Under the pieces are notes generated by a model. That model saw only the letters and a program-made list of their open reading frames with translations, had not been told where the DNA came from and did not search any database. A stretch of DNA of 20,000 nt from an uncultured virus (IMG/VR IMGVR_UViG_3300024432_002033) (lineage: Duplodnaviria > Heunggongvirae > Uroviricota > Caudoviricetes), in IMG/VR virus record IMGVR_UViG_3300024432_002033; one strand, 5' to 3'. A program made the translations under genes and the position numbers. This document shows positions 1,956 to 17,780 of the stretch, one piece after another. Numbering within the stretch: the first letter of the stretch is position 1; each line of letters begins with the position of its first letter.

Positions 1956-3511
1956 GGTAAACGGGTCAACTCCTCTTTTCTATTCCGCCAGCTGATCGGC
2001 ATCCACGCATTGCCCTCAGATCGGAAGGATTCCCAATCCGTCGCTGGAGATTTTGGGGTCGTTTCCGGTCTGGGCGCTCGAGCGGCTCTCCTCGATTCCT
2101 CATAATAGATCGGATCCCATCCGCCTAGTAGGAGAAGGAACCCGTCAACTGCGTGATCGAATTTTTTGACGGGCTTTCCGTCCGCGCCTCGGCGATACGC
2201 GAGTATCTGACTTTTAAGAGGCGCGAAATCCGGGGTATCTGGGATTGTGATCATGTCATTTTGAAGCCAATAATATGTGACCCCGATCAGCCACTCCTTT
2301 CCCTCGGTTTTACTCTGGAAGGCGCGACGCATCACTCGTAGACCGCGGTCTTCAAGTTCCCTGTTTTCAAAAGCTCCGGCGGCGTCGCAGTGCCATTCGA
2401 AGATATTATATTTTTTCCAGTCCTCTTCAGCGCGATTAGACCAATCTGTAGCGCTCGTATTATTCTCGATCAGGAGCTTCATCACGACGATCTTCTTATT
2501 GGTCCCTCGATAGCCCTCGATCATAGCCGTGTCATGATCGAAACCCCAATCAAACGCTCCTTTGGATTCGCCCCTGAACTCTAGATTTTCAGGATCATAG
2601 GGGGTCCCGTCTATGAGGAAGCCCGGATTATTGGGATCGGGGGCTTTGAATGCCCTTCTTATGAGGGTCTTGGGAAAAATTCGTCCCGCTCCGCGGGGAA
2701 GTGTTCCCACGTATTGAGTGCGAAACATTTCGTCGCTGAGGAAGAGTTGGGCGATCTCCGAGTCCCTCTTGGCTGTATCGGTCTGTAGGAAAGGGCAGTC
2801 CTTCGCGAGCCATTCGAATTTCTCGAACCCCCATTTCTTGGCATCGTCTAAAATATCGAGAAAGGATTCGGTGCCCTCTTTTCCTGGCACCGCAGTGCTG
2901 AGGAGGAAACGTCTTGGATCCTCGCTTCCACGGATCATGGGCCACGCCTCCTCCCTGATCCCCATGGGAATGAGGACGTATTCATCCATCAGAAGCGCAT
3001 CCGCGGTCGGAGCGTTGACCTGCTTAGAGCTTGCAGCACTATACCTTATCCACCCTCCAGCCTTGTACAGGGTCCTAGTCTTCATTGGCTCCCCAGACAG
3101 GAACTGGGAGAAGAAATCCCGCGTGGCTTTTCCCTCAGGCCCGGAGGGCCAGAGGATCTTCCTGCAGTAATCGTAGAGCCATTCAGCCTGAATTTGGCTG
3201 CCGGAGAGGATGAAGACCCGGTATCGTTGATCCCTCAGCGTGAGCCATACTGCTATGATAGCGACACAGATTGTTTTCCCACCTTTTCGGGGAGCCCTTA
3301 TAACGAAGTACCTCTTTCCGTCCTGCACCGCCTTGAATAATTTGAGCTGTTGGGGCGAGGCCTTATCCAAGTCGAAGAGTCGTCTCGGGACGAAATGGCG
3401 GATGAAGGCGAGAATGTTCTTGAGGGATTTCTGCCACTGAAGGTCATTAATCAGGGTCTGACCTTGGATCTTGAACTTATCAAGTTCCCTGAGAAGCGCT
3501 CCTCTTTGCAA
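1943..3511 (-). CDS. terL: Terminase large subunit
   Basis: 522 aa with TTG start. Walker A APRKGGKT, Walker B LLMDE, coupling motif LLSTA, RNase H-like nuclease acidic motifs AFDWGFDHDTA, HCDAAG and KFDHAVDG. Adjacent to the portal. Confidence 0.93.
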   Translation of the reverse strand: MQRGALLRELDKFKIQGQTLINDLQWQKSLKNILAFIRHFVPRRLFDLDKASPQQLKLFKAVQDGKRYFVIRAPRKGGKTICVAIIAVWLTLRDQRYRVFILSGSQIQAEWLYDYCRKILWPSGPEGKATRDFFSQFLSGEPMKTRTLYKAGGWIRYSAASSKQVNAPTADALLMDEYVLIPMGIREEAWPMIRGSEDPRRFLLSTAVPGKEGTESFLDILDDAKKWGFEKFEWLAKDCPFLQTDTAKRDSEIAQLFLSDEMFRTQYVGTLPRGAGRIFPKTLIRRAFKAPDPNNPGFLIDGTPYDPENLEFRGESKGAFDWGFDHDTAMIEGYRGTNKKIVVMKLLIENNTSATDWSNRAEEDWKKYNIFEWHCDAAGAFENRELEDRGLRVMRRAFQSKTEGKEWLIGVTYYWLQNDMITIPDTPDFAPLKSQILAYRRGADGKPVKKFDHAVDGFLLLLGGWDPIYYEESRRAARAPRPETTPKSPATDWESFRSEGNAWMPISWRNRKEELTRLPWEK

Positions 3512-3943: not shown

Positions 3944-4030
3944 TCAATAAAACGGGTTTGGGTTCCCGAACTCCCCTTTTAAATTTTACGCCGGTTTGGT
4001 TCGTATCTGCGAACCAGTTAACCCTTTTTT
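3944..4030 (-). repeat. Conserved promoter/operator repeat, copy 1 (inverted relative to copies 2 and 3)
   Basis: Reverse complement reads aaaagggttaactGGTTCGcagataCGAACCaaaccggcgtaaaaTTTAAAAggggaGTTCGggaaccCAAACccgttttattga. It aligns along its length with 10728-10810 and 13007-13089. Confidence 0.92.
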
Positions 4031-4693: not shown

Positions 4694-4702
4694 CTGAATA
4701 CC

Positions 4703-5162: not shown

Positions 5163-5404
5163 TAGATCTCCACGTTGAGATGACCGTTGAGGAGAGGGAG
5201 CTCCTTAGGAAGTGGAAGGGGAGAAAAAAATGGAAGGAATGGTTGCTCTCCATCCCGCGACTGCTCAGGGAAGCCGCCGACGCGAGGGAGATTGCGGAAT
5301 TAAAGCTGGAAAAAGCGATGAGAGATATCAAGGAGTTGGAGGAGCGGTGCCAACATCTTCAAAAGGAGCTGGGGAAATATGAGCGAGATTCGACTCCCAT
5401 TTAG
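5147..5404 (+). CDS. Small ribbon-helix-helix/antitoxin-like DNA-binding protein with C-terminal coiled coil
   Basis: N-terminus VDLHVEMTVEERELLRKWKGRKKWKEWLL fits a beta-strand/helix/helix pattern like archaeal RHH proteins, followed by a coiled coil. Alternative start at 5159. Confidence 0.6.
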   Translation: MVLCMVDLHVEMTVEERELLRKWKGRKKWKEWLLSIPRLLREAADAREIAELKLEKAMRDIKELEERCQHLQKELGKYERDSTPI

Positions 5405-6380
5405 CGCGCTCATACCCTTTTTCCCTCCGATGCGGCTCACGAGAGACGCGGACGAAGATCGGGACTTTCAGGAATCACTGCGGGAACATGGAATTCGCCG
5501 ACCACTACTCGTCCGCCCGCATCCCATTCACGAGGGGAAATTCGAGGTCGTGGACGGCAATCGGCGTCTGGCACACGGCCAGGTAGTTGGACTTGAGGAT
5601 GCTTCCTGCGAGGTCAGGGAGATGAGCGACGAAGAGGCGTTCACGGTCGCCCTGGTCTTAAACGTGCAGAGATCGAATGTGCCAAGCATCGGAATCGGAA
5701 ACTGGTTACAGCTGATGCAGATGAAGTTCGGTTATTCTCAGGAGAAGTTAGCTGAGAAGGTGGGCAAGAGTCAGTCCTGGGTCTCCAGACACCTGAAGCT
5801 CGTGAAATCGGAGATTGAGGAAACGAACTCTTATGAGAAAAGGGGTGATATTCCTGGAGAAATTATGTCCCGGGGCATAATCTTTGAGAGCGAGAGACAA
5901 ATGCGCGCCCTCAGATCAGCCCCGGAAGATGTCAGACGGAGCATCCTGGAGGGAGCCAGTGAGACGGGCGAGCTTCCATCAGGTCGCGAAATCGAGCGGA
6001 GGGCAACGGCTGAGATGTCCGCGGGTGAAGTCCTTGAGATATATTCTCCGAATCGTTATGACGAAGAATTCGTCGAGCATCAACTTCAGAAATTGTCCGG
6101 CGTCACTCTGACGGAGGCGAAGGAAATTCTTTGGAATTTTGGAAATCGGCGCATCAAGCCACGAGGGAAGAGAGACACCGTGGATAGGAATGACGCGGCT
6201 GTACGCGTATTTCAGCAGCTTACTCGCTATTATCCCACGAACCTGATAGATATCGTCGGGAAGCATACGAGAAGCACAAACTTGGAAACCTTGATCAGGT
6301 ACTGCAGGATGTTGACGCAGCGGATGTTTGAGATTGCACCCGAAGATTTGAAACAATCTGCCTTGCAGGACTTCATCTGA
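5379..6380 (+). CDS. ParB/RepB/Spo0J family protein (ParB/Srx domain plus HTH)
   Basis: 333 aa. SLREHGIRRPLLVRP and EVVDGNRRLA (box I and the GxxR arginine patch), LNVQR, then HTH SQEKLAEKVGKSQSWVSRHLKL. Confidence 0.9.
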   Translation: MSEIRLPFSALIPFFPPMRLTRDADEDRDFQESLREHGIRRPLLVRPHPIHEGKFEVVDGNRRLAHGQVVGLEDASCEVREMSDEEAFTVALVLNVQRSNVPSIGIGNWLQLMQMKFGYSQEKLAEKVGKSQSWVSRHLKLVKSEIEETNSYEKRGDIPGEIMSRGIIFESERQMRALRSAPEDVRRSILEGASETGELPSGREIERRATAEMSAGEVLEIYSPNRYDEEFVEHQLQKLSGVTLTEAKEILWNFGNRRIKPRGKRDTVDRNDAAVRVFQQLTRYYPTNLIDIVGKHTRSTNLETLIRYCRMLTQRMFEIAPEDLKQSALQDFI

Positions 6381-7292: not shown

Positions 7293-7309
7293 CAGAGGAG
7301 CCCAACCTC

Positions 7310-7768
7310 TTGGGCTTAGCGATTAAACAGCTGCTCCAAGGGGGCGTGAAATACGAGCGTGAGATGAGGCCTCGCAGGACGGTGCATGGAATTATGATGA
7401 GACAGCACCTTCAGCCCTTCATACTCATAACGAAAACGGGCGAATTCGGAAGTTCAGCTGAAACCGATTTTGCGAGGGCACATCGCTTTCTGGTCGAAAC
7501 AAGTCTCACGCATGAGCAGCCTATCGTCCTCGCCTATAAACGGAATACGCGAATCAAATTTTATGCCCTCGATCCATGGAATATCAAGAAGGAATCCAGC
7601 TTAGTCCGAATCGAAGATTACATTATGATGCGCTTCCCGCTGAAATTGGGCTGGAGATGGTATCCTTCGAGAGACCTTGCGGTTCTCTGGACAAGAATGA
7701 AGGCGTCTAGATATAGCAAAACGAAACTCGAATATTTTCATACATTCAGTCAATGTACTGAGGTCTGA
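7310..7768 (+). CDS. Hypothetical protein (152 aa, basic)
   Basis: TTG start with GAGGAG RBS upstream. Ends convergently with the methyltransferase gene. Confidence 0.7.
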   Translation: MGLAIKQLLQGGVKYEREMRPRRTVHGIMMRQHLQPFILITKTGEFGSSAETDFARAHRFLVETSLTHEQPIVLAYKRNTRIKFYALDPWNIKKESSLVRIEDYIMMRFPLKLGWRWYPSRDLAVLWTRMKASRYSKTKLEYFHTFSQCTEV

Positions 7769-8279
7769 TGGCATATAGAATTCTGAGATCCGGTTTCCCC
7801 CCTGAGCGATCCTCGATGATGGTGTACTTGTTTGCACGGCACTTCTTTTTCATGATCCTGTAAAGCTGGATTGAATGCGTCTCTATGAGATATTCGGGAA
7901 TCCGTGAAAATATCTCATTGGGAATTTGGAAGAGAAAGGCCTCGCAACCCTCGCAATCTATTTGCATTAGATCAGGCGACCACCGTTTTATGAGATCTAT
8001 AAAGTCGTCCGGATGTCGTATTGGGAGGAAGATGGGAATCATATCTGGCAGGAGTTTCGCATTTTCTTTGAGTTTTTCGTAAAAGACGGGATCCCCTTCG
8101 ATCGCGATAACTCCCTTCGCGCCTTTTTGGAGGAAATAATCGGCAGTACGGCCCCAATCCGCGCCCACATCCATTACCTTCTTGCCTTCGTAATCGACGA
8201 AGCCGTATTCAGCCTCCCAGGAATCGAGGGGCACGAAAGCCCAGCCCAATGGTCGGAGGTGATTAATCCTATACTTCAC
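7746..8279 (-). CDS. FkbM-like SAM-dependent methyltransferase
   Basis: Motif I VMDVGADWG, motif II VIAIEGDP and FkbM-type MQIDCEGCE. Probable GTG start at 8279 (frame open to 8363). Confidence 0.85.
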   Translation of the reverse strand: MKYRINHLRPLGWAFVPLDSWEAEYGFVDYEGKKVMDVGADWGRTADYFLQKGAKGVIAIEGDPVFYEKLKENAKLLPDMIPIFLPIRHPDDFIDLIKRWSPDLMQIDCEGCEAFLFQIPNEIFSRIPEYLIETHSIQLYRIMKKKCRANKYTIIEDRSGGKPDLRILYAIRPQYID

Positions 8280-8296
8280 GCCCAGACCCTCAGCTT

Positions 8297-8944
8297 CTAA
8301 ATCGGGCTTGCCTTTATGAAGGTCATTAAAAGTCTCCTTCCCTCCACAATGAAGCGCCTCCACTGTTTCGTGATATGTGGTTTAACGGGAGAGGGAAGGA
8401 TTTCGCAGCATAACTCGGCTTCTTCTACTTTGAAGAAGGGATCGAGCATTTCGAATGCTTCATCATGAGTCCATCTGCTGAGAACGTTTGCATTGTCTCT
8501 GTAAGCGCTGGCGATAAACATCACTAGTAGTACTCCATTTGGCTTTAGGACGCGCTTGAATTCAGCTAGGGCTGATCTGTGATTGGATAAGTAGTATAGA
8601 AGCCAGTAAGCGATTATACAGTCCTCGCTATCAGTCGGGATCTGCGGCATATTCTGCACATCGGCGATTATGACATCCCTCCGCTTTCCAGGCCATTGTT
8701 CTGGAGTTTTCAAGTCTAATAGCCGATATCTGCTACAGTTCGAGAAAAAGCGCCAATAGCCATATAGATCATTATTACTCCCACAATTTAAGACGCTGCC
8801 TGTGATATCCTCCCCATGTCTATATAGGAACTCCATTGAGGTCTCCCTGTGTCCAATATCGGGATGCCTTCGATGAAGTAATCCCTCGGTCCATTTCTGC
8901 GAAAATTCTTCATCCAGAAGTCGGACCTTGAAGGGGATCATCAA
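8297..8944 (-). CDS. Class I SAM-dependent methyltransferase (Methyltransf_11-like)
   Basis: VLNCGS motif I variant, LLD, IIADVQNMP, EDCIIAYWLLYYL and ALAEFKRVLKPNGVL. Confidence 0.85.
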   Translation of the reverse strand: MMIPFKVRLLDEEFSQKWTEGLLHRRHPDIGHRETSMEFLYRHGEDITGSVLNCGSNNDLYGYWRFFSNCSRYRLLDLKTPEQWPGKRRDVIIADVQNMPQIPTDSEDCIIAYWLLYYLSNHRSALAEFKRVLKPNGVLLVMFIASAYRDNANVLSRWTHDEAFEMLDPFFKVEEAELCCEILPSPVKPHITKQWRRFIVEGRRLLMTFIKASPI

Positions 8945-9053
8945 GAAAATGTAGCAAGCCTCACGGATATAAAAATTTCCGCGCCGTACTGTGGCGCTCG
9001 CGTCGCTCGTGCGCGCGGTTTAAGTGAGAGCCATTGATATTATATTGAACGCC

Positions 9054-10043
9054 ATGAAGGTAGCTAAACTTGCGGCTCCCGGGAAGATGGAGTTCTTCGA
9101 GGAGCCCCTTCCCGAGTTGAGGAAAAAAGGGGAAATCCTGATCCAACCCAGATTTATGGGCATATGCGGGACCGATCTCCACTATTTCCGCCATGGTGGC
9201 CTCGGTTCTCATATGCAGGAATTACCGATGTCGATAGGACATGAAGTCTCCGGCACCGTCTCGGATAGCCTCAGTGAAGATTATGAGATCGGAGACAAGC
9301 TGGCAATCGAGCCGGGTCTGCACTGCGGGAATTGTAAATATTGCGAAAGTGGAATGCAGAATCTATGTCAGAGCCCTAGGTTTATTGGCTCTAATGTAGA
9401 GGGCGCTTTTCGTGAATGGATGGTTGTAGATGAGAAGCAAGTATTGAGAATACCTAAATCCATGAGCCTAACAGATGCTGTAATGATCGAGCCATTGAGC
9501 GTGGCAATTCACGCTGTAAGGAGGAGCCGGCTCCAACTGGGCGACAGTGTGGCCATCTACGGAGTTGGACCGATCGGGTTACTAATCCTCCAAGTCTGTA
9601 AGGCAATGGGATGTGGGGCGAGTTACGTCTATGATAAATTGGATTATAGGGTTTCATTTGCAAAGCGGTTTGGTGCAGAACCAATATGTAAAGAGGAGCC
9701 TCCGACGGTCGATATCGCATTTGATGCTGCAGGCGCGCAGGAGACGATTGACCTCTGTTTCAAGGGAACGGGTAAAGGTGGGACAGTTGTGCTCGTCGGC
9801 GTGCCCGAAACCGATTTTGTAAGTTATAATCCTCACATTAGTAGGATAAAAGAGCTCAACGTCTATAACTGCAGGCGCGCCAACAGGGCGCTCAGTTTGG
9901 CCCTCGAACTTTTCTTGTCCGATAAAGTATCTTTCGAGGGGATGGTAACCCATACGTTTTCACTTGAGAATATACAAGAAGCTTTCGAGACCGCCGCCGA
10001 TTATCGGGATCAAGTGATCAAGGCAGTCATTCAGAGGGGCTGA
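9054..10043 (+). CDS. Zn-dependent medium-chain dehydrogenase (sorbitol/threonine dehydrogenase-like)
   Basis: GICGTDLH, GHE, structural Zn motif CGNCKYC..7..C, IEPLSVAIHA and the GVGPIG Rossmann motif. ATG at 9054 lies ~30 nt after TTTAAG (the ORF track start is 9024). Confidence 0.93.
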   Translation: MKVAKLAAPGKMEFFEEPLPELRKKGEILIQPRFMGICGTDLHYFRHGGLGSHMQELPMSIGHEVSGTVSDSLSEDYEIGDKLAIEPGLHCGNCKYCESGMQNLCQSPRFIGSNVEGAFREWMVVDEKQVLRIPKSMSLTDAVMIEPLSVAIHAVRRSRLQLGDSVAIYGVGPIGLLILQVCKAMGCGASYVYDKLDYRVSFAKRFGAEPICKEEPPTVDIAFDAAGAQETIDLCFKGTGKGGTVVLVGVPETDFVSYNPHISRIKELNVYNCRRANRALSLALELFLSDKVSFEGMVTHTFSLENIQEAFETAADYRDQVIKAVIQRG

Positions 10044-10047
10044 TGAT

Positions 10048-10713
10048 ATGGGTGTTATAATCATCGGGGGAGCTGCGGGCTCGCAGATTGCCCAAGAGAT
10101 ATATCAGCTTCAGAGGATCCCAATTATCGGTTTCATGAATAATTTCGTCCCAGAGGAGATGCAAGAAGAGCGGCTCATGGCGCCCGTATTGGGAGACTAC
10201 CAGGAAGAGGCAAATCTTGCTGTGCTGAGGAAGCCGAATATCAATTATTTCGTGGCTACCGGCAACAACAGAATAAGAAAGGAGATCGTCGAGGACCTTC
10301 TAGAACTTACTGGGAAATACCCGATCAACGCCATTCATCCCATGGCCTTTGTCTCCCCCTCTGCGGAGATAGGATGGGGTAACTTAATCGTCGTCTTCGC
10401 CTATGTCCGAAACGGCTGCATAGTTGGTAACTGTGTGATCCTCAACGGAGGAGTGCAATTAGGGCAGGACAATATTATTGAAGACTATGTGCAGATAGCG
10501 CCTGGCGCCTCAATTGGGGGTTATTCCATCGTGAAGAAGCTTGCGTTCGTTGGGATAGGTGCGCAGACGGATACCCGAATCACGATAGGGGAAGGCGCCT
10601 TAGTCGCGGGTGGAGCCTTCGTGAAAGAAGACGTTGCTCCTTGGACGATGGTCGCCGGAACTCCCGCTGTCTATAAGAAGGACATAGAGGGCATCGACGC
10701 GGTCTATAAATGA
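10048..10713 (+). CDS. Sugar N-/O-acetyltransferase, PglD/NeuD family (left-handed beta-helix)
   Basis: N-terminal IIIGG domain, VATGNNRIRK, NAIHPMAFVSPSAEIG, hexapeptide repeats and C-terminal VAGTPA. Confidence 0.9.
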   Translation: MGVIIIGGAAGSQIAQEIYQLQRIPIIGFMNNFVPEEMQEERLMAPVLGDYQEEANLAVLRKPNINYFVATGNNRIRKEIVEDLLELTGKYPINAIHPMAFVSPSAEIGWGNLIVVFAYVRNGCIVGNCVILNGGVQLGQDNIIEDYVQIAPGASIGGYSIVKKLAFVGIGAQTDTRITIGEGALVAGGAFVKEDVAPWTMVAGTPAVYKKDIEGIDAVYK

Positions 10714-10812
10714 GATCGAGGCCACCGCAAAAGTTAGCGGTCCGCAGATACGAACCAAACCAGAGTAAGCCTTAAAAAGGGAGTTCGGGGACCCGAACCC
10801 GTTTTATTGAGG
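10714..10812 (+). repeat. Conserved promoter/operator repeat, copy 2
   Basis: gatcgaggcca...aaaagttagcGGTCCGcagataCGAACCaaaccagagtaagcCTTAAAAAgggaGTTCGgggaccCGAACccgttttattgagg, immediately followed by the aminotransferase ATG. It fills the entire intergenic gap. Confidence 0.92.
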
Positions 10813-11922
10813 ATGAGAGTCCGAAAATTCGACCTTAAATTCGACGAATATCAGATCGAGGCATTCAAGGCTATCTGTGAAGATATCCTTACCGCGCCCA
10901 GGCCCATCAGTAATGGATACTATGTGAAGGAATTCGAGAAGGCATTCATCAAGACAACGGGATCGAAATATGGCACGGCCGTCATGAATGGTACAGGCGC
11001 CCTCGAGGTCGCTTTGAGGGCTTTAGAGCTGGAAAATGAAACCATAATCATACCCACGAACACCTTCATTTCGACTGCCTTAACGGTCGAGAACATAGGA
11101 GCCATGATTCATCCCGTTGATATTGAGAATGAGACATTCGGCCTTGATCCAAGGAAACTCGAGGAGGCTCTTGACCAGTTAGATGTCGGGGCAGTGATCC
11201 TCGTCCATATAGGGGGTCAGATCTCGAAACATGTTGATGAGATCATCCGTATCTGTTATGAATATGAAGTGCCGCTGATCGAAGATGCATCGCAGGCTCA
11301 TTGCGCAGAATATAAATATAAGGCAGGCTCATTCGGTGAAGTCGGCACCTTTAGCTTCATGTCAACAAAGGCCATGACCACGGCTGAGGGCGGTATGATC
11401 GTTACCGACAACGAGAAGCTTGATAGTAGGATGAAGCAAATCCGCAGTTATGGGGCTCCACCCGAAGATTCACAGATTCACACGATTATCGGGGGCAACT
11501 ACAAAATGACTGAATTTCAAGCAGGCCTCGGACTCCTTGAGCTGAAGCGCGTCGAAAGGCGGATCGAGGAGAGAAGGAAACTGTCCGAGGAGTACATTAA
11601 ACGTCTGAAGGGGAATCCCGCTTATACACCAGCGGAACATTATGGCCACGCATCCTATTATAAGCAGATCATCCAATTCACGGGCGACGTGATCGAACTT
11701 AGACGGTATTGCAAGCAAAGAGAAGTTGATATGACGGGGGAGGTTTATTACAATCCCATACACTCGCAGCCGATATATAGGGGCAGATTCACTGGCCAGG
11801 ATTTCCCCGTGGCTGATTATTATTGCAAGCACCACATATGCCCTCCAAACTATCCAGAATTGTCTCTTGAGCAGGTGAAGTACGTCTGCGACGTCCTCGA
11901 TGAATTCACGAAGAAGACTTGA
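10813..11922 (+). CDS. DegT/DnrJ/EryC1/StrS family PLP-dependent aminotransferase
   Basis: NGTGALEVAL, PTNTFIST, IEDASQAH, the FSFMSTKAMTTAEGG catalytic-Lys motif and GGNYKMTEFQAGLG. ATG at 10813 (in-frame TTG at 10807). Confidence 0.94.
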   Translation: MRVRKFDLKFDEYQIEAFKAICEDILTAPRPISNGYYVKEFEKAFIKTTGSKYGTAVMNGTGALEVALRALELENETIIIPTNTFISTALTVENIGAMIHPVDIENETFGLDPRKLEEALDQLDVGAVILVHIGGQISKHVDEIIRICYEYEVPLIEDASQAHCAEYKYKAGSFGEVGTFSFMSTKAMTTAEGGMIVTDNEKLDSRMKQIRSYGAPPEDSQIHTIIGGNYKMTEFQAGLGLLELKRVERRIEERRKLSEEYIKRLKGNPAYTPAEHYGHASYYKQIIQFTGDVIELRRYCKQREVDMTGEVYYNPIHSQPIYRGRFTGQDFPVADYYCKHHICPPNYPELSLEQVKYVCDVLDEFTKKT

Positions 11923-11928
11923 GAAGGG

Positions 11929-12966
11929 ATGATCGAATTGACTGAGATGGCGCTGATAACAACGACGATCAATACCGCCGAGGTACTCAAACTTTATAGA
12001 AGGATGAACCCGGATATTCCCTTCTTCATTACGGGGGACAGGAAATCTCCACACGAAAAGCTGAAACAACTGGCTAAGGACCTAGGCAACGTCCACTACT
12101 ACGATGTTGAGGACCAGAAAAAACTTGGGTACAAGTCCTCGGAGATCATCGGGTGGAATACGATCAGACGGCGTAATATTGCCCTTCTGGAAGCCTTGAG
12201 ATACGGGGCGGATAAGATTGTCACGCTAGACGATGACAATATCCCCTTATCTTCCTCATATTTTCAAGATTTCAACATTCTGCTCTCTCAAGGTTTTGAC
12301 GGTTTGATGGCTTCAACCTTGAAAGGCTGGTTTAATGTCGGAGACTATTTCAGCCCCAAGATCTACCATAGAGGCTTCCCCCTCGAATATCGACAGATGG
12401 AACGTGAAGTACAGTTTATTCCCGTCGTGGACAAGAAGATCGGGGTAGCCGCGGGGCTGTGGTTTGGAGATCCGGATATCGATGCGATGGACCGAATAAC
12501 AAATCAGCCCATAGTCCATCAGATCTCCCAGATTCTCCATGAGGGAGTCGTAGTCGAAGAGGGAATTTTCTCACCCTTTGATTCGCAGAATACCGCATTC
12601 GTGAGGCAGCTTGCACCCCTGATGATGATGCTTGAAGTGGGTCGGTATGATGATATCTGGGCCTCCTACCTGACGCAGAGAGTTATGCATGAGAAGGGTT
12701 TCCACGTCCATTACGGGCCTCCTTTCGTATGGCAGGAAAGAAATAGGCAGAATCTCCTCGGGAACCTTGAAGCTGAGATCTTTGGGATGAAGCATACGCC
12801 TCGATTCTGCGAAGACTTGAGGCGGGTGGAGCTTGATAAGGGGAGCGTTATAGACAATCTTCAAACAATTTATGGTGAACTCGCTCAGCATGGAAAGGAT
12901 TATTTGCCTGAAGCAATGCTCAAGCAATTCGATCCTTGGTTAGAGGATCTAGAACGGGTAATGTAA
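11929..12966 (+). CDS. RGP/GT75 (UDP-arabinopyranose mutase)-like or STELLO/DUF288-like GT-A protein
   Basis: ITTTIN, RRNIALL, the TLDDDN acidic motif, HRGFP, GLWFGDPDIDA and GRYDDIW match hallmark motifs of reversibly glycosylated polypeptides and the related DUF288 family. Confidence 0.78.
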   Translation: MIELTEMALITTTINTAEVLKLYRRMNPDIPFFITGDRKSPHEKLKQLAKDLGNVHYYDVEDQKKLGYKSSEIIGWNTIRRRNIALLEALRYGADKIVTLDDDNIPLSSSYFQDFNILLSQGFDGLMASTLKGWFNVGDYFSPKIYHRGFPLEYRQMEREVQFIPVVDKKIGVAAGLWFGDPDIDAMDRITNQPIVHQISQILHEGVVVEEGIFSPFDSQNTAFVRQLAPLMMMLEVGRYDDIWASYLTQRVMHEKGFHVHYGPPFVWQERNRQNLLGNLEAEIFGMKHTPRFCEDLRRVELDKGSVIDNLQTIYGELAQHGKDYLPEAMLKQFDPWLEDLERVM

Positions 12967-12991
12967 ATGAGAGGCGTGAGAAAAATGAAGG

Positions 12992-13092
12992 GATCGAGGC
13001 CAGAGCAAAAGGTTATTGGTCCGCAGATCCGAACCAAACTAGGGTAAACTTTAAAAGGGAGTTCTGGAACCCGAACCCGTCTTATCGAGGAT
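12992..13092 (+). repeat. Conserved promoter/operator repeat, copy 3
   Basis: gatcgaggccagagcaaaaggttattGGTCCGcagatcCGAACCaaactagggtaaacTTTAAAAgggaGTTCTggaaccCGAACccgtcttatcgaggat, directly before the epimerase ATG at 13095. Confidence 0.92.
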
Positions 13093-13094
13093 AA

Positions 13095-14099
13095 ATGGCT
13101 GAGGACAAAACTGGAGAAGCTCCGTCTAGGGAAAAATGCCTTGTGACGGGCTCGTCAGGATTTATCGGCAGTCATATGGTGAACTTCCTTAAGAATCGAG
13201 GATATTGGGTGCGCGGAGTCGACGTGAGGCACAAGTCTGAATGTCACCTGAAGACGTTTGAAGATGAGTTTTATCAGTTGGATTTGAGAGTGGCTGAAAA
13301 TGCGGTCTACATGGTTAAAGACATAGATTATGTGTTTCATTTAGCCGCCAACATGGGGGGTGTAGGATACATTATGGAGATCCACTCCCCGGTGCTCTAT
13401 GATAATCTCATGATTAACCTTAATATGCTGGAAGCCGCTCGCTTCGAGGGGGTTGAAAGATTCTTCTTCAGCAGCTCGGCATGCGTCTATAACCGAGAAC
13501 TTCAGACTATGCCGGACGTGACGCCTCTAAGGGAAAGCGATGTATACCCGGCTTGGCCCGATTCGGTCTACGGGTGGGAGAAACTCATCGCCGAGATAGC
13601 ATGTGAAAATTATGAGAAGGACTATGGGCTCCCCGTCAGAATCGCACGTTTCCACAACGTAATGGGACCCTATGGCACCTACAAGGGCGGAAGAGAGAAA
13701 GTGCCAGCCGCGCTCTGCCGAAAGGTTGCGGAGGCCCATGACGGAGATAAAATCGAGATCTGGGGAGACGGGAAACAGACGCGAAGCTTCCTCTATATAG
13801 ATGACTGTTGTGAGGCATTCTATCAGCTCGTGCTCAGCAACTACAACAAACCCGTTAACATCGGCACGGACCGCCTGATCTCGATAGACGACCTTGCCTG
13901 CCTCATACTCGAAATCGCCGATAAAGACTGTGACTTGTATCATGATATGAGCCGTTGGCAGGGGGTTAGAGGTCGAAATGCCGATCTCACACTGGTCAAG
14001 AGCGCGATTGGTTGGGAGCCGAAGACCAGCCTAGAGGAGGGCCTACTGCGCACCTACGAATGGATAAAGAAGATGGTACAGGAAGATGCAGTCTCATAG
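13095..14099 (+). CDS. GDP-mannose 3,5-epimerase-like extended SDR
   Basis: GSSGFIG, HLAANMGGVGYI, SSSACVY, YGWEK (YxxxK), GGREKVPAALCRK, WGDGKQTRSF and GVRGRN, which are characteristic of the GME subfamily. Confidence 0.9.
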   Translation: MAEDKTGEAPSREKCLVTGSSGFIGSHMVNFLKNRGYWVRGVDVRHKSECHLKTFEDEFYQLDLRVAENAVYMVKDIDYVFHLAANMGGVGYIMEIHSPVLYDNLMINLNMLEAARFEGVERFFFSSSACVYNRELQTMPDVTPLRESDVYPAWPDSVYGWEKLIAEIACENYEKDYGLPVRIARFHNVMGPYGTYKGGREKVPAALCRKVAEAHDGDKIEIWGDGKQTRSFLYIDDCCEAFYQLVLSNYNKPVNIGTDRLISIDDLACLILEIADKDCDLYHDMSRWQGVRGRNADLTLVKSAIGWEPKTSLEEGLLRTYEWIKKMVQEDAVS

Positions 14100-15111
14100 T
14101 GAACGCGGTGAGGACAAAGCGGGCGCTGGAGGAAATCCAACCCTTGAAAGTCCAATTAAAATCTACGTTATCGCCCCATGGACTGTGACCGAGAATGAAC
14201 ATGCTTTTCTGAGAGCTCACTCGCCCCTCGATTCCGGGAGATGGGCTAATATTGAATTCTGTGATTGTTTCGATGACACTGATCTGTATATAGTCTTCTG
14301 GGGCGGTGGGCCAAATCCCTATCGTAGGATGAAACGATGCCCTGCTCATTCAGTGCTCAATTTTACTAGAGAGAGCAGTCGAAGGATTGCGCCTGAATGG
14401 ACGTTTGGCGAAGAAACGATTTACTGTCAATGGCCATCCGATACACTCAATCTTCAGATTTGGGGTGGAGATGGAGCTCCTAATCCTCACGAAAGGGTGA
14501 AGCATTATTCAGATCTCAACGGCGCCCCTTTTCCAAAGAAATCAGGTCTTCTCTCGTGGATAACCACCGGAGATTACTCCCTTCCTAGTGAGCGGGATCG
14601 AATAGATTTCATGAGGAAATTTACAAACGAGTACCCTGGCGTGCTGGATCTATATGGCAGGAACACGGGCGAATTCGATTTGAGTTCGATTGACACCTAT
14701 AAGGGACCTCTAGAGAACAATCGGGGTGCGCTGGATCCATATGAATATACTTTTACCTTCGAGAATATCCGTGAGCCCAATTACATGTCGGAGAAGTTTA
14801 ACGATGCTATCCTAGCGGGATGCATTCCCATCTACCGGGGCATGACAAACATAGCCAATTATTACCCGAAGGGCTCATTCATTGAGGTAGACATAACTAG
14901 GGAAGACGCACCTCAAAAGGTCATGAAAATATTAGAGAGCGATCATAGGGAACAAAATATAGAAGCTCTGTATAAGGCGAAAGATTTACTGCTCAACAAA
15001 TATCAATTCTGGCCGGCTCTATTCGGGCTCATTCATCGGCTTATAGAGAACGGCACGATTGACCTAAATAAGCTGGAATGGCGAAGGAATAAAAATCGAT
15101 ATATTTACTGA
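14086..15111 (+). CDS. Glycosyltransferase family 10 (alpha-1,3-fucosyltransferase-like)
   Basis: GT10 motif YEYTFTFENIREPNYMSEKFNDAILAGCIPIYRG, plus R..F and DLYGR. Alternative TTG start at 14143 with GGAGG RBS. Confidence 0.85.
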   Translation: MQSHSERGEDKAGAGGNPTLESPIKIYVIAPWTVTENEHAFLRAHSPLDSGRWANIEFCDCFDDTDLYIVFWGGGPNPYRRMKRCPAHSVLNFTRESSRRIAPEWTFGEETIYCQWPSDTLNLQIWGGDGAPNPHERVKHYSDLNGAPFPKKSGLLSWITTGDYSLPSERDRIDFMRKFTNEYPGVLDLYGRNTGEFDLSSIDTYKGPLENNRGALDPYEYTFTFENIREPNYMSEKFNDAILAGCIPIYRGMTNIANYYPKGSFIEVDITREDAPQKVMKILESDHREQNIEALYKAKDLLLNKYQFWPALFGLIHRLIENGTIDLNKLEWRRNKNRYIY

Positions 15112-15173
15112 CCTGGGCTTGTGTAGGGGATCACAAGGGCACGGCTTGGATCCTTTGGAGGGATCGAAATTTA

Positions 15174-15815
15174 ATGAGAAAATGGGAAAAATGGTGGGCG
15201 AACGTGCCCGACGACTACATGCTGGTTGAGGTGCAGCGGACCCACCCGATCAGGAGCCTGATGGCCGAGGAAGCGAAGATAGGGGAAAACGTCCTAGACG
15301 TCGCCTGTGGCCAATGCATAAGTTATCCCTTTTTCAGAATAGCGGGCCTCAGATACGTCGGACTGGACCTCACGAAGAAATTCATTGAATCCTCCAGGGA
15401 AATGCATCCCGGCATCGAGCTCCACGAAGCCAACGCGCTGAACATGCCCTATGCCGACGCTTCCTTCGATACCGTCTGCTGTAAAGACCTCCTCGAGCAC
15501 CTCAGCCCCGAGGATGTCCAAACCCTCATCAGAGAAATGTGGAGGGTCACGAAGCTGAAGATGATGATAGCCTTCTTCCTACCACCATGGGACAAACCCG
15601 CCTCCATCGTTCTCATCGACGGCCTCCATGGCCCATATTATCATAATCAGTATAACAAACACGAAATAATGGCCATGATCAAAGACCTTGAGGATCTCGA
15701 TAAGGTGGACATCCAATGGGTCCGCAGCGATGCCGCGATAAAACTCAGACCGCCCCTCGGCGAGAAACCATACACGCATGCCCCCCTTTACATAATCACG
15801 AAAAAAACATCCTAG
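15174..15815 (+). CDS. Class I SAM-dependent methyltransferase (Methyltransf_11-like)
   Basis: VLDVACGQC, VGLDLT, ANALNMPYADASFDTVCCKDLLEHL and IREMWRV. Confidence 0.9.
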   Translation: MRKWEKWWANVPDDYMLVEVQRTHPIRSLMAEEAKIGENVLDVACGQCISYPFFRIAGLRYVGLDLTKKFIESSREMHPGIELHEANALNMPYADASFDTVCCKDLLEHLSPEDVQTLIREMWRVTKLKMMIAFFLPPWDKPASIVLIDGLHGPYYHNQYNKHEIMAMIKDLEDLDKVDIQWVRSDAAIKLRPPLGEKPYTHAPLYIITKKTS

Positions 15816-15890
15816 ACAGATGGGGAAGAAGGCTTCGCCCCTGGCTCAAGGTCATCCCTGTCTCGCCTTCGGAGCGGCCCCTTCACCCGA

Positions 15891-17063
15891 TCATGGATGA
15901 TTGGATTCTCTAGAGTCTCCATGCGCGCGAAATACAGATAAACGCGGGGGCGCGTCGCGTATGAAGTCAATTGAGTGTTGAGCGATGAGATCAGTGTAGA
16001 ACTGAACAAGTCGGTAGATGTTGTTCTCAATCGTAAATTCATATCTTTTCCTGAGTACAATTTCTTTTAATTCATTACTTTCACTAAGTTGTTCCTTCAT
16101 ATCGTCAAAGCTGTTGATGACAAGACCGACTTTATGTTCCTCGACGAACTCGCTGAGGGTCTTGTGGGGAAGAGTCAAGACTGGAAGACCGCATGCGATA
16201 TATTCAATAGCCTTGTTGGGCAGGGCAACATCGAGATGCTCTTTATTCATCACATCGTTGAAGCCAGCCCACCCAAAATCATATTTATGTAACTCATTGT
16301 GCATCAGTGCCTTCTGGGGGAAATGTCCGTGATAATGGACAAGGTCCTCCCCCTCAGCCAGTAAAGAATACGCCTCATCTTCTCTCGCTGCGTATATATG
16401 AATGTGGAAACCCTGCTCCGCTATTTCCCTGAATATCCCTCTAAGGTCATAATGATGTCCCTCTATCTGACTAGTGATCGTACCAGCATACACGATATGT
16501 ATCTCCCCATCCTTATCCGAAAATTTATCGGTCAAATACCGGGGCATCATGTCTTCGGAGACATAGTTGCGAAAGACTAGATCGGACTCGTCGACGGTAT
16601 ACCGTTTCCTGATGTAGTCTCCAACCCCTTCGGTAACGTATAACCTACCGTCGCTCTCTTCATTCGCTATCTTCTCTTCATCAGCATATTCCTGTATTCT
16701 AGCCTCGTCATCGCCAGCATAGTAACCCATCTTCCGCATAGTCAGCGCATCATGGGTATCGTGGATGACCGGGATATCATCTACCGCGTTAATCGCTGAC
16801 ACCGTCAGAAAATCTGGAGCATTATGGCTGTGGATGATGTCAGGCTTGTATCTTTTAGCAAGCTCGGAGATGCTTTTCTGGGGATTGCTTAACTTAACAA
16901 ATTCGTCGAAAAACTCATCTCCGTAGCCATACAGCTCGGTCAACGTTCTATCCAGGTAGCCGAAGACGAGTGAAACATCTTCGCCCAGCGCCCCCTTCAA
17001 TCCCTTGGCAAGCTTCAACGCCCGGATACAGGGCTGAGGCTGGAGAAACAACAAACGCATCAC
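15891..17063 (-). CDS. GT-B glycosyltransferase (GT4-like)
   Basis: PDIIHSHNAPD, IHDTHD, IVYAGTI and the donor-binding motif LPNKAIEYIACGLPVL...VEEHKVG. Confidence 0.88.
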   Translation of the reverse strand: MMRLLFLQPQPCIRALKLAKGLKGALGEDVSLVFGYLDRTLTELYGYGDEFFDEFVKLSNPQKSISELAKRYKPDIIHSHNAPDFLTVSAINAVDDIPVIHDTHDALTMRKMGYYAGDDEARIQEYADEEKIANEESDGRLYVTEGVGDYIRKRYTVDESDLVFRNYVSEDMMPRYLTDKFSDKDGEIHIVYAGTITSQIEGHHYDLRGIFREIAEQGFHIHIYAAREDEAYSLLAEGEDLVHYHGHFPQKALMHNELHKYDFGWAGFNDVMNKEHLDVALPNKAIEYIACGLPVLTLPHKTLSEFVEEHKVGLVINSFDDMKEQLSESNELKEIVLRKRYEFTIENNIYRLVQFYTDLIAQHSIDFIRDAPPRLSVFRAHGDSRESNHP

Positions 17064-17185
17064 AGATCACATCCATTTTTCTATTCTATTCGCGCACATC
17101 AAGCCAGAATAGCATGAATCTCCATGACCGTTATCAGTGCGCGGATACATCAAATTGGATTAATGAAATATAAGAGTGATGCAGA

Positions 17186-17671: not shown

Positions 17672-17780
17672 GTTTCATAAAAGCTTAAAAAAGCATCTAC
17701 TGTGCTCATACTACACACGCCCGTAACCTCTGGGCATGTTGTGCACTAGTATTCAACTCATTTATTCGTTCAATTTTAAC

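What the first reader, a model, noticed from the sequence alone, without database searches (positions are those of the whole stretch)
7746..17063. Ten-gene virus-encoded glycan biosynthesis and decoration module near terminase/portal
Seen: about 9.3 kb of consecutive sugar genes (three methyltransferases, Zn-dehydrogenase, acetyltransferase, aminotransferase, RGP/GT75-like, GME-like epimerase, GT10, GT4) within a head-tail virus segment, with no flippase, polymerase or housekeeping genes. Established: autonomous glycosylation pathways with sugar methylation are known from chloroviruses and mimiviruses, and glycosyltransferases plus methyltransferases occur in filamentous archaeal viruses. A cluster this complete appears unusual for a tailed virus. 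Inference: it builds a methylated, acetamido-containing glycan on virion proteins, or remodels the host S-layer glycan (superinfection exclusion), or less likely hypermodifies DNA. The promoter element shared with the packaging side argues that it belongs to the virus and is not flanking host DNA.
Basis: partly seen in the sequence, partly recalled or inferred. Interest (0 to 1): 0.8.

Follow-up and report, generated by a model that had tools for sequence, protein, structure and literature searches.

The report
Sugar-building gene island in uncultured tailed virus
An uncultured head-tail virus, probably of sediment archaea, carries an optional 8.5-kb block of genes that make and attach unusual sugars; the block is real and viral, but similar and larger sugar blocks are already known in cultured cyanophages.

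Summary
They belong to a virus. A ~90%-identical relative (L008) is collinear on both sides but lacks window 7376-15921, so nine of the ten genes form an accessory island, and the GT4 (15891-17063) is backbone. A lineage-specific ~100-nt promoter-like cassette lies twice inside the island and once upstream of g04, next to terL.

One branch can be named. g20 is a GDP-mannose 3,5-epimerase (PDB 2c59, E 1.6e-98, catalytic Cys/Lys kept). g19 is a GT75 pyranose-mutase relative (MtdL, E 6e-27). These two families are neighbours in 26 of 69 genome loci, including the A201A producer. With the GT10-like g21, this points to an L-galactose, probably furanose, sugar. The Zn-dehydrogenase and the aminotransferase occur fused elsewhere, which supports an oxidise, aminate, acetylate branch.

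Relatives of the virus encode RadA and Alba, so the host is probably archaeal. The target of the glycan is unresolved: virion protein is favoured, host envelope and DNA remain open.

The claim "unusual for a tailed virus" is overstated. Cultured cyanophages and IMG/VR contigs carry comparable clusters. Interest is moderate.

The parts
294..1955 (-). Portal protein, Mu-like (DUF935)
   Evidence: PF06074 E 6.3e-39; phrog_113 E 8.5e-41; 99 relatives at E<=0.001; 80 metagenome loci kept
1943..3511 (-). Terminase large subunit
   Evidence: PF03237 24.5 bits vs cut-off 22; phrog_2 E 1.1e-15; tblastn hits in 47 of 84 related loci
3944..4016 (-). Copy 1 of the ~100-nt promoter-like cassette, upstream of g04 on the packaging side; holds a TTTAAAA box and a GC hairpin followed by a T-run
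   Evidence: Inverted repeats I1 and I2; same place in L007 and L008, in none of the other 82 loci
5379..6380 (+). ParB-like protein (backbone)
   Evidence: PF02195 E 1.5e-11 and PF17762; TIGR00180 82.6 bits vs cut-off 58.45; hits in 24 of 84 related loci
7310..7768 (+). g12, unknown 152-aa protein; the left border of the island falls at about its codon 22
   Evidence: 48-51% identical homologues in L011 and L012; only 25 residues left in L008; no family match even at E<=5
7376..15921 (.). Accessory glycan island: present in the window, absent from the ~90%-identical relative L008, where about 40 bases holding a (GC)n run stand instead
   Evidence: blastn: window 3623-7375 = L008 8118-4370 and window 15922-17627 = L008 4329-2621; junction read
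7746..8363 (-). FkbM-family SAM methyltransferase (probable sugar O-methyltransferase)
   Evidence: TIGR01444 41.2 bits vs cut-off 37.7; phrog_5108 E 1.7e-11; below Pfam cut-offs
8297..8944 (-). Class I SAM methyltransferase (Methyltransf_11)
   Evidence: PF08241 36.7 bits vs cut-off 21.2; only residues 89-140 matched
9054..10043 (+). Zn-dependent polyol/ketose-type dehydrogenase (ORF opens at 9024)
   Evidence: PF08240 and PF00107; best solved relatives are ketose reductase and sorbitol dehydrogenase, E 3e-48; its subfamily occurs fused to DegT aminotransferase in 6 of 8 long representatives scanned
10048..10713 (+). NeuD/PglD-type hexapeptide sugar N-acetyltransferase
   Evidence: PF17836 and PF00132; TIGR03570 135.9 bits, below its cut-off of 160.8
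10714..10814 (+). Copy 2 of the cassette, directly upstream of the aminotransferase; absent in some population variants
   Evidence: Repeat families D1, D2, D11; contigs in runs X1 and X2 replace 10716-10812 with 18 other letters (tables 5 and 5c)
10807..11922 (+). DegT/DnrJ/EryC1 sugar aminotransferase
   Evidence: PF01041 E 1.3e-85; best solved relatives are QdtB and GDP-perosamine synthases, E about 1e-41
11929..12966 (+). GT75 (RGP) NDP-pyranose-mutase-like protein
   Evidence: PF03214 35.6 bits vs cut-off 23.8; MtdL structures E 5.7e-27; 4703 homologues at E<=0.001; a clade of six metagenomic sequences with 100/100 support
12992..13092 (+). Copy 3 of the cassette, directly upstream of the epimerase
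13095..14099 (+). GDP-mannose 3,5-epimerase
   Evidence: PDB 2c59 E 1.6e-98 over residues 13-331; Cys130, the YxxxK pair and the Lys of GGREK align with Cys145, Tyr174/Lys178 and Lys217
14086..15111 (+). GT10-like (fucosyltransferase-family) glycosyltransferase; overlaps the epimerase gene by 14 bases
   Evidence: PF00852 34.3 bits vs cut-off 23.9; solved alpha-1,3-fucosyltransferases E 6e-7 to 5e-5; FEN...YMSEK stretch in the translation
15174..15815 (+). Class I SAM methyltransferase (Methyltransf_11/25)
   Evidence: PF08241 E 2.1e-16
15891..17063 (-). GT4-type (GT-B) glycosyltransferase, a backbone gene kept in the relative that lacks the island
   Evidence: PF13439 and PF13692; 89% identical in L008
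17186..20000 (-). Backbone on the far side of the island: g24, g25 and g26 (unknown function) and an ORF-poor stretch at 18028-18938
   Evidence: 88%, 56% and 91% identical in L008, in the same order; no family matches

Best explanation
Shown: window 7376-15921 is an accessory island of an uncultured head-tail virus. It encodes only soluble enzymes, in two divergent units. The leftward unit holds two methyltransferases. The rightward unit runs dehydrogenase, acetyltransferase, cassette, aminotransferase, GT75, cassette, epimerase, GT10, methyltransferase. A GT4 glycosyltransferase of the virus backbone lies next to it.

Inferred pathway, branch A: the GDP-mannose 3,5-epimerase (g20) turns host GDP-mannose into GDP-L-galactose. 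The GT75 protein (g19) contracts the ring to GDP-L-galactofuranose, as MtdM and MtdL do in the A201A pathway. The GT10-like enzyme (g21), from a family that uses GDP-L-fucose (6-deoxy-L-galactose), transfers the L-galactose unit.

Inferred pathway, branch B: the Zn-dehydrogenase (g16) oxidises a secondary alcohol of a sugar to a ketone. The DegT aminotransferase (g18) aminates it. The PglD-like enzyme (g17) N-acetylates it.

The three methyltransferases O-methylate the product. The backbone GT4 adds another sugar or the first one.

Inferred use: the glycan is built in the cytoplasm and attached to virion proteins. This would change the surface that host receptors or defences meet, and would differ between strains that carry or lack the island. 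The host is probably an archaeon.

The confidence given is for the whole chain. Viral ownership and accessory status alone I put at about 0.9, branch A at about 0.55, and the virion-protein target at about 0.4.
For: Viral ownership and accessory status. L008 is collinear on both sides and lacks the block. Codon usage of the island matches the backbone (r 0.81). Near-identical island pieces (1 and 4 differences in 505 and 688 bases) lie in run X2, from a different study than X1. No homologue of g13-g19 or g21 was found in the 84 related viral loci. g20 and g22 each gave one distant hit, 29% in L053 and 33% in L023.

Branch A. g20 matches GME at E 1.6e-98 with the catalytic Cys and Lys kept. g19 matches MtdL at E 5.7e-27, with the DDD motif, Arg148 (=Arg159), Asp183 (=Asp195), Ser-Gln (=Ser228-Gln229), Arg239 (=Arg257) and Asp242 (=Asp260) kept. 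A gene at least 40% identical to g20 lies within 8 kb of the GT75 gene, mostly within 2 kb, in 26 of 69 genome loci, including the Marinactinospora locus L138, and in 3 of 14 IMG/VR loci. g21 passes the GT10 cut-off and overlaps g20.

Branch B. Six of 8 long representatives of the g16 subfamily are fusions of Zn-ADH and DegT, and one also carries a formyltransferase domain.

Cytoplasmic chemistry. No transmembrane-like segment occurs in any island enzyme or in the GT4.

Link to the packaging side. The same cassette precedes g04 on the terL/portal side and precedes g18 and g20.

Archaeal host. RadA with the HhH domain occurs in 5 related loci and Alba in 2. All 5 organism-named hits to the L027 RadA, among 120 listed, are Bathyarchaeota or Bathyarchaeia. 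Sigma-70-like sites are not enriched, 15 against 22.8 +/- 4.7 in shuffles. A/T boxes lie 13-36 nt upstream of the starts of g07, g08, g14 and g24, without a Shine-Dalgarno sequence.
Against: No step has been assayed.

g19 departs from MtdL at three functional positions. The Mn-binding His287 is Gln269, His292 is Gln274, and Asp87 is Ile79. In MtdL, D87N and D87S abolish activity, and loss of His287 and Arg257 marks the inactive AtRGP5. Gln269 and Ile79 are invariant in the 21-sequence alignment of its subfamily, so the subfamily may do different chemistry or use another substrate.

g21 matches only the C-terminal GT10 domain, and weakly.

No nucleotidyltransferase or 4,6-dehydratase is present, and the substrate of branch B is unknown.

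Nothing in the window identifies the acceptor. The capsid and tail genes lie outside it. Reading the cassette as a late promoter is an inference from position only, and its RNA folds are not consistent across copies (z -2.5, 0.09 and -0.37).

The neighbours (ParB here; RadA, Alba and a C5 DNA methylase in relatives) are DNA-related rather than structural.

The host call rests on relatives with only 52-59% portal identity. One portal homologue is labelled Patescibacteria, and a distant one (29%) lies in a Nomurabacteria MAG.
Confidence: 0.5

Rival explanations
1. Host-envelope remodelling. The soluble enzymes add L-galactose, an acetamido sugar and methyl groups to the host's lipid-linked glycan precursors. 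The host's own flippase and oligosaccharyltransferase then display the altered glycan on the S-layer or on appendages. This blocks superinfection or the loss of progeny on cell debris.
For: The absence of a flippase, polymerase or other membrane protein fits a pathway that feeds host machinery. The island is strain-variable, as receptor-related functions often are. A preprint on Asgard archaeal viruses proposes exactly this alternative for a sugar methyltransferase (passage read). From recall: the large cyanophage sugar clusters are usually read this way.
Against: No lipid-carrier glycosyltransferase, Gtr-like protein or membrane anchor is present. Sharing the cassette with the packaging side fits late expression better than early protection. 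No integrase or lysogeny gene lies in the window.
Confidence: 0.25
2. DNA hypermodification. The transferases attach the tailored sugars to a hydroxymethylated pyrimidine in the viral DNA. This protects the DNA from host nucleases.
For: Pyle et al. (bioRxiv 10.1101/2023.12.21.572611; abstract and sections 5 and 9 read) show phage GT-A and GT-B enzymes putting mono- to trisaccharides on 5hmC. They find such GTs next to epimerases, secondary GTs, ParB-like proteins and terminases. Here the island lies 1 kb from a ParB-like gene and 4 kb from terL. The relative L042 has a C5 cytosine methylase in the equivalent region. In IMG/VR contigs L159 and L166, the GT75-epimerase pair sits among primase, DNA methylase and dUTPase genes.
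Against: No thymidylate-synthase-like or TET/JBP-like protein was detected in the window, even at E<=5 for the unknown ORFs. In Pyle et al., about 65% of GT contigs had no such neighbour and were judged less likely to act on DNA. A three-methyltransferase, aminosugar and furanose pathway is far more elaborate than the DNA glycans reported there. Only 20 kb of the genome is visible.
Confidence: 0.12
3. A small-molecule product. The enzymes tailor a glycosylated secondary metabolite such as a nucleoside antibiotic, and not a glycoconjugate.
For: The only characterised bacterial GT75 enzymes, MtdL and Hyg20, work in antibiotic pathways. Zn-ADH plus DegT aminotransferase also recalls aminocyclitol biosynthesis (from recall).
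Against: No aglycone-forming enzymes, cyclase, resistance gene or exporter are present. In the 69 genome loci, GT75-GME pairs occur across many phyla and not only in the actinomycete loci.
Confidence: 0.05
4. Not viral: flanking host DNA or an assembly chimera.
For: The summed word depth over the island bins is lower than over the backbone in all four runs (table 2). The tool warns that this figure cannot rank regions.
Against: Backbone genes lie on both sides, in the same order as in the independent contig L008. Contigs in X1 join backbone (up to 7346) to island (from 7674) across a g12 deletion (table 5c). Exact-match island pieces in X1 have even depth, 63-74 (table 8). Codon usage is continuous. 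The lineage-specific cassette lies inside the island. None of the 69 genome loci with a GT75 gene has a homologue of the GT10, Zn-ADH, acetyltransferase or methyltransferase genes, and one (L103) has a 29%-identical aminotransferase.
Confidence: 0.03

Closest known systems
Sugar/LPS-type gene clusters of T4-like cyanophages (Synechococcus phages Sf-FS3, Sf-CH8, S-T4, S-SCSM1, S-SSM7)
   Same: These are runs of about 12-16 consecutive nucleotide-sugar and transferase genes in a tailed virus. They include GME-like genes (116 phage records at E<=1e-20), GT75-like genes (7 records), GT10-like genes (6 records) and sugar O-methyltransferases. In Sf-FS3 the GME-like and GT10-like genes lie 2 kb apart.
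   Different: Identity is only 27-44%. The hosts are cyanobacteria, not a probable archaeon. No Zn-ADH, aminotransferase and acetyltransferase triad is annotated in the two regions I fetched. Here the block is a clean presence/absence island between near-identical genomes. The function is untested in both.
MtdM/MtdL steps of A201A biosynthesis in Marinactinospora thermotolerans (GDP-mannose to GDP-L-galactose to GDP-L-galactofuranose)
   Same: An adjacent GME and GT75 gene pair (L138). The DXD motif, the catalytic Arg and five sugar- or phosphate-binding residues are kept.
   Different: g19 is 28% identical to the L138 protein. His287, His292 and Asp87 are replaced by Gln, Gln and Ile. The context is a viral glycan island, not an antibiotic cluster.
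Phage DNA glycan hypermodification clusters (C5-MT/5mYOX or ThyS plus GT; Pyle et al., bioRxiv 2023)
   Same: GT-B and other transferases with an epimerase, near a ParB-like gene and the terminase.
   Different: The defining base-activating enzyme was not found in the 20 kb. The pathway here is much larger.
Virion glycosylation by mycobacteriophage-encoded glycosyltransferases and methyltransferases
   Same: Soluble, virus-encoded transferases and methyltransferases in a tailed virus that assembles in the cytoplasm.
   Different: Those genes sit beside the capsid and tail genes. Here the structural genes are outside the window and no acceptor is identified. This cluster also makes its own nucleotide sugars.
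Single glycosyltransferases of archaeal tailed viruses (for example the GT4 of Velanvirus near tail genes; passages of PMC11706807 read)
   Same: A GT4-type transferase as a backbone gene of a probable archaeal tailed virus (g23, and GT1-family genes in L025 and L036).
   Different: In the passages I read, those viruses are reported with lone transferases, not with nucleotide-sugar synthesis and tailoring genes.

Membership tests
GDP-mannose 3,5-epimerase (SDR) | Full-length similarity to solved GME | tested here: met
   2c59 E 1.6e-98, query residues 13-331 aligned to chain residues 30-345
GDP-mannose 3,5-epimerase (SDR) | Catalytic Cys145 and Lys217, plus the SDR Tyr-x3-Lys pair | tested here: met
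   Cys130, the Tyr and Lys in 'YGWEK', and the Lys in 'GGREK' align with them (the PDB chain index runs 2 ahead of the native numbering). The residue roles come from a passage in PMC2279256.
GDP-mannose 3,5-epimerase (SDR) | Conversion of GDP-mannose to GDP-L-galactose | not testable with these tools
   Needs an enzyme assay
GT75 NDP-pyranose mutase (MtdL/Hyg20/plant UAM) | Pfam RGP match above the gathering score and similarity to MtdL | tested here: met
   35.6 bits vs cut-off 23.8; E 5.7e-27 to 7yua
GT75 NDP-pyranose mutase (MtdL/Hyg20/plant UAM) | DXD motif, conserved Arg159, and Asp195, Ser228-Gln229, Arg257, Asp260 | tested here: met
   D101-D103, R148, D183, S-Q in 'DSQNTA', R239 and D242 (roles from PMC9937993)
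GT75 NDP-pyranose mutase (MtdL/Hyg20/plant UAM) | Mn-coordinating His287 (and His292, Asp87) | tested here: not met
   Gln269, Gln274 and Ile79 stand there. Gln269 and Ile79 are invariant in 21 of 21 aligned subfamily members. I therefore file g19 as GT75-like and not as a proven mutase.
GT75 NDP-pyranose mutase (MtdL/Hyg20/plant UAM) | Genomic pairing with a GME that supplies GDP-L-galactose | tested here: met
   26 of 69 genome loci and 3 of 14 IMG/VR loci have a gene at least 40% identical to g20 within the fetched flank. This includes 6 of the 18 loci whose GT75 is at least 41% identical to g19.
GT10 fucosyltransferase family | Pfam GT10 C-terminal domain above the cut-off | tested here: met
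   34.3 bits vs cut-off 23.9, residues 168-270
GT10 fucosyltransferase family | Nucleotide-sugar-binding motif (FxxxFEN...YxTEK, recalled from memory) | tested here: inconclusive
   'FTFENIREPNYMSEK' is present. The motif definition is recalled, and the N-terminal 165 residues match nothing.
Tailed-virus glycan gene clusters (cyanophage type) | Consecutive nucleotide-sugar, transferase and methyltransferase genes inside a genome with head-tail hallmark genes | tested here: met
   compared
Phage DNA sugar-hypermodification cluster | A GT next to a 5hmC/5hmU-forming enzyme (ThyS-like, or 5mYOX with C5-MT) | tested here: not met
   No such family in 26 window ORFs, nor at E<=5 in 10 unknown ORFs. 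Only 20 kb is visible, so a distant gene is not excluded.
Serotype-converting prophage modules (Gtr-type) | Membrane flippase and membrane transferase, integrase, lysogeny | tested here: not met
   No transmembrane-like segment in the island or the GT4; no integrase in the window
Archaeal tailed virus | Archaeal-type information genes and promoters; a host link by CRISPR spacer | tested here: inconclusive
   RadA (5 loci) and Alba (2 loci) occur in relatives with 52-59% portal identity. The named RadA hits are all Bathyarchaeia. A/T boxes precede start codons. The spacer match was not tested. Two conflicting bacterial MAG labels exist.

The most novel reading that the evidence does not exclude
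The island and the backbone GT4 decorate the viral DNA itself, on a hydroxymethylated base made by an enzyme outside the window, with a methylated oligosaccharide that contains an acetamido sugar and L-galactofuranose. This would be the most elaborate DNA glycan known and the first in an archaeal virus. Presence or absence of the island would then set which host nucleases a strain escapes.
Probability: 0.12. Interest if true: 0.85.

Novelty: new variant of a known kind. Interest (0 to 1): 0.42.

Why it matters
If the reading holds, a probable archaeal head-tail virus makes its own activated L-sugars instead of borrowing host glycans. Closely related strains would differ by the whole pathway. 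That gives a natural with/without pair for asking what virus-made glycans do in sediment archaea. The work also brings out two enzyme questions that reach beyond this virus. The first is a very large prokaryotic GT75-like subfamily (4703 hits) that is often paired with GME yet has Gln where MtdL binds Mn. The second is a set of natural Zn-dehydrogenase and DegT aminotransferase fusions. Neither is characterised, as far as my searches show.

Tried and rejected
- terL found no match in the deposited phage genomes and no relative in IMG/VR as a single query. The portal profile found only 3 distant IMG/VR loci and 1 genome locus.
- No whole genome is held for the window. The metagenome records behind the loci could not be searched whole. 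So I could not look for ThyS, TET or capsid genes elsewhere in this virus.
- Rfam at E<=0.1 gave 0 matches and ARAGORN gave 0 tRNAs.
- The cassette does not fold consistently as RNA. Terminator-like sites are at chance level, 19 against 17.9.
- The protein atlas gave nothing usable for g26 or g12.
- PADLOC gave only weak generic methyltransferase-fold hits to mad2.
- g21 and g16 have no close relatives in IMG/VR.
- The genome scan with the Zn-ADH profile used one generic pattern and returned ordinary 28-37% identical dehydrogenases. Only 2 of 79 loci had an aminotransferase nearby, so it says nothing about branch B.
- Summed contig depth is lower over the island than over the backbone in all four runs. 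I do not use this as evidence, because the tool says depth cannot rank regions.
- Joints at 4017>15819 and the opposite-strand joints at 3947, 4021 and 4028 have short sides and run through the repeated cassette. I read them as graph branches at a repeat, not as rearrangements.
- Structure prediction of g19 and g21 was not accepted, so no fold-level test was made.
- Earlier-findings look-ups returned nothing.
- I considered filing the block as a Gtr-type serotype-conversion module and rejected this, because it has no membrane proteins and no integrase.

Full report
**What is there.**

The window holds 26 plausible ORFs. Portal (294-1955, PF06074 E 6.3e-39) and large terminase (1943-3511) lie on the minus strand. 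A ParB-like gene (5379-6380) opens a plus-strand block.

Nine pass Pfam's curated cut-offs. The FkbM-type methyltransferase passes NCBIfam's cut-off. The Zn-dehydrogenase most likely starts at 9054. The small ORF at 8961-9212 that overlaps it has no match and is probably not a gene. None of the island enzymes has a transmembrane-like segment.

**Is it viral, and is it one unit?**

No genome is held for the window. The portal has 99 relatives at E<=0.001. A metagenome scan kept 80 related loci.

I ran tblastn with all 26 window proteins against the 84 viral-relative loci:
- portal hit 84 loci, terL 47, ParB 24 and g11 24;
- g13 to g19 and g21 hit none;
- g20 had one 29% hit and g22 one 33% hit;
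- g23 to g26 hit only L008.

L008 is about 90% identical in DNA. It aligns to window 2-7375 and to 15922-19652, with about 40 bases holding a (GC)n run in between. So 7376-15921 (8.5 kb) is an accessory island with viral backbone on both sides. The GT4 (g23) is a backbone gene.

g12, whose first ~22 codons remain in L008, has 48-51% identical homologues in L011 and L012. L008 therefore looks like a deletion form at that edge.

Further points against host DNA or a chimera:
- No flanking direct repeat, tRNA or integrase marks the borders.
- Codon usage of the island correlates with the backbone (r 0.81) as well as the two backbone halves correlate with each other (0.72).

**Reads.**

Logan contigs of four runs from four studies cover all 30 bins of the window. 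Exact-match island pieces in X1 have even depth (63-74). X2, from another study, holds island pieces with 1 difference in 505 bases and 4 in 688. Contigs in X1 join backbone to island across a deletion inside g12 (7346 to 7674, with CGCGCGC between).

The summed depth is lower over the island. I do not lean on this, because the tool warns against doing so.

**The repeated cassette.**

A ~100-nt element occurs three times: at 3944-4016 on the minus strand upstream of g04, at 10714-10814 upstream of g18, and at 12992-13092 upstream of g20. Each copy has the orientation of the gene that follows it.

Among the 84 loci, only the two closest relatives that cover this position, L007 and L008, have it, at the g04 position.

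It contains a TTTAAAA box about 40 nt before the start codon, a GC hairpin with a T-run, and GAGGA. It has no Rfam match and no consistent RNA fold.

In X1 and X2 some contigs lack copy 2, with 18 other letters in its place. Many contigs diverge exactly at the cassette borders (tables 5, 5c and 7). It therefore behaves as a portable promoter or leader unit of this lineage.

Two copies inside the island argue that the island is run by the virus's own regulation.

**What the enzymes make.**

- g20 is a GDP-mannose 3,5-epimerase. It matches 2c59 at E 1.6e-98. The residues aligned with Cys145, Tyr174/Lys178 and Lys217 are kept. The roles of Cys145 and Lys217 come from a passage of PMC2279256.
- g19's only solved relatives are the MtdL structures (E 5.7e-27). 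I read the abstract, the opening text and two of the three parts of the Results of PMC9937993. MtdL converts GDP-L-galactopyranose to GDP-L-galactofuranose in the A201A pathway.
- g19 keeps the DDD motif, the essential Arg, Asp195, Ser228-Gln229, Arg257 and Asp260.
- g19 has Gln, Gln and Ile for His287 (the Mn ligand), His292 and Asp87.
- Gln269 and Ile79 are invariant in an alignment of g19 with 20 homologues, drawn from 4703 hits. This is a large uncharacterised subfamily and not a decayed copy.

Comparative genomics supports the link between g19 and g20. Of 69 genome loci with a GT75-like gene, 26 have a gene at least 40% identical to g20 in the fetched flank, mostly within 2 kb. These include L138 of Marinactinospora thermotolerans. 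Three of 14 IMG/VR loci do as well.

g21 passes the GT10 cut-off, matches solved alpha-1,3-fucosyltransferases weakly, and overlaps g20 by 14 bases. Fucose is 6-deoxy-L-galactose. A GDP-L-galactose-type donor for g21 is therefore a reasonable inference.

For the second branch:
- The closest solved relatives of g16 are polyol and ketose dehydrogenases.
- A search of 1.84 billion cluster representatives found its subfamily at 39-48% identity.
- Of 8 long representatives that I scanned, 6 are fusions of this dehydrogenase with a DegT aminotransferase, and one also has a formyltransferase domain.
- This supports the order oxidise (g16), aminate (g18), N-acylate (g17).

The substrate is unknown. 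A polyol-type dehydrogenase acting on the exocyclic C5 alcohol of a furanose is an attractive guess and no more than that.

**Host.**

I scanned 68 ORFs taken from the equivalent regions of 17 relatives:
- RadA with its HhH domain in L027, L035, L039, L047 and L032;
- Alba in L015 and L018;
- a C5 DNA methylase in L042;
- GT1-family transferases or methyltransferases in L025, L036 and L023.

The L027 RadA has 120 listed homologues. The five that carry an organism name are all Bathyarchaeota or Bathyarchaeia, at 58-60% identity.

Sigma-70-like sites are not enriched. A/T boxes lie 13-36 nt before several start codons. An archaeal host is likely but not shown. One portal homologue is labelled Patescibacteria, and a 29% relative lies in a Nomurabacteria MAG.

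**How unusual?**

In deposited phage genomes:
- GME-like genes occur in 116 records, mostly cyanophages, at about 43% identity;
- GT75-like genes occur in 7 records;
- GT10-like genes occur in 6 records.

Sf-CH8 has about 16 consecutive sugar-related genes around its GT75-like gene. Sf-FS3 has a GME-like gene, a methyltransferase, an epimerase, a GT10-like transferase, a sugar O-methyltransferase and several fucosyltransferases in a row.

IMG/VR contig L157 carries, in one run beside a tail gene and helicase and nuclease genes, an acetyltransferase, an aminotransferase, a methyltransferase, a GT2, a 53%-identical GT75, a B12-radical SAM enzyme, a GT47 and another GT2.

A tree of 41 GT75 sequences puts the window in a 100/100-supported clade of six metagenomic sequences (66-99% identical). 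Other viral copies fall in several separate places. This fits repeated capture by viruses.

What I did not find in print:
- a nucleotide-sugar pathway in an archaeal tailed virus; the passages I read report single transferases;
- any mention of viruses in a GME review, where 'virus' and 'phage' each occur 0 times.

These are limited searches and not proof of absence.

**Target.**

This is the open question. I favour virion proteins at about 0.4, for three reasons. The enzymes are soluble. A tailed virus assembles in the cytoplasm. The cassette is shared with the packaging side.

Host-envelope remodelling (about 0.25) fits the lack of a flippase.

DNA glycosylation (about 0.12) is supported by neighbourhood patterns published by Pyle et al. 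and by the DNA-related neighbours here. No base-activating enzyme was found in the 20 kb.

**Verdict.**

The pathway is partly resolved, with an L-galactose or L-galactofuranose branch and an acetamido branch. The target is unresolved. This is a new variant of a known kind of viral gene cluster, of moderate interest.

Noticed in passing
window 1-297 (-); L005 1868-8194: The ORF that runs off the left end of the window is the start of a 2108-aa protein directly after the portal in the 94%-identical contig L005. It carries an ATP-dependent DNA ligase domain (E 6.9e-23) and a metallo-beta-lactamase-fold domain. A 989-aa ORF follows it. A giant multi-domain protein in the head-gene position is unusual.
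   Followed up: partly
window 3944-4016, 10714-10814, 12992-13092: The ~100-nt cassette is polymorphic in the population. Copy 2 is replaced by 18 letters in contigs of X1 and X2. Contigs in X1, X2, X20 and X3 leave the window exactly at its borders, and some continue into other start codons. It looks like a mobile promoter or leader unit.
   Followed up: partly
window 15923-15928, 9011-9016, 18034-18039; L008 4350-4365: Alternating GC tracts sit at the right border of the island, in the divergent promoter region, and at the L008 and X1 deletion junctions. GCGCGC occurs 9 times against 3.3 +/- 2.0 in shuffles, and 5 of 200 shuffles reach 9. These may be recombination hot spots.
   Followed up: partly
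window 18028-20000: The stretch 18028-18938 has no ORF of 60 aa or more. It holds an inverted repeat (18196-18215 / 18384-18403) and a direct repeat (18655 / 18964). From 18.5 kb on, GC falls to 0.40-0.45 and AT skew to -0.30 to -0.35. g26 (18939-20000) matches no family.
   Followed up: no
window 4370-4693 and 4703-5017 (-): Two small proteins between terL and ParB each have one strongly hydrophobic 19-residue segment (Kyte-Doolittle means 2.23 and 2.53). They are possible membrane proteins. g07 is conserved in 11 related loci.
   Followed up: no
A2 alignment; loci L088-L156: A very large prokaryotic GT75-like subfamily (4703 hits) has invariant Gln and Ile where MtdL has its Mn-binding His287 and essential Asp87. 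It is nevertheless often next to a GME gene. Its chemistry is untested.
   Followed up: partly
P0361, P0364, P0363, P0392, P0407, P0358: These are natural fusions of a g16-type Zn-dehydrogenase with a DegT aminotransferase, in both domain orders. One also carries a formyltransferase domain.
   Followed up: partly
L159 10001-12000; L166 9857-13563: In these IMG/VR contigs a GT75-like gene and an epimerase sit with no other sugar genes, among primase, DNA methylase, dUTPase and SNF2 helicase genes. This placement would suit a role on DNA.
   Followed up: no
L047 1-698; L042 1-1336; L012 1244-2215: Relatives carry varied cargo at the position equivalent to the island: a papain-family protease, a C5 cytosine methylase and a DUF5131 protein. 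The site is a general hot spot for accessory genes.
   Followed up: no
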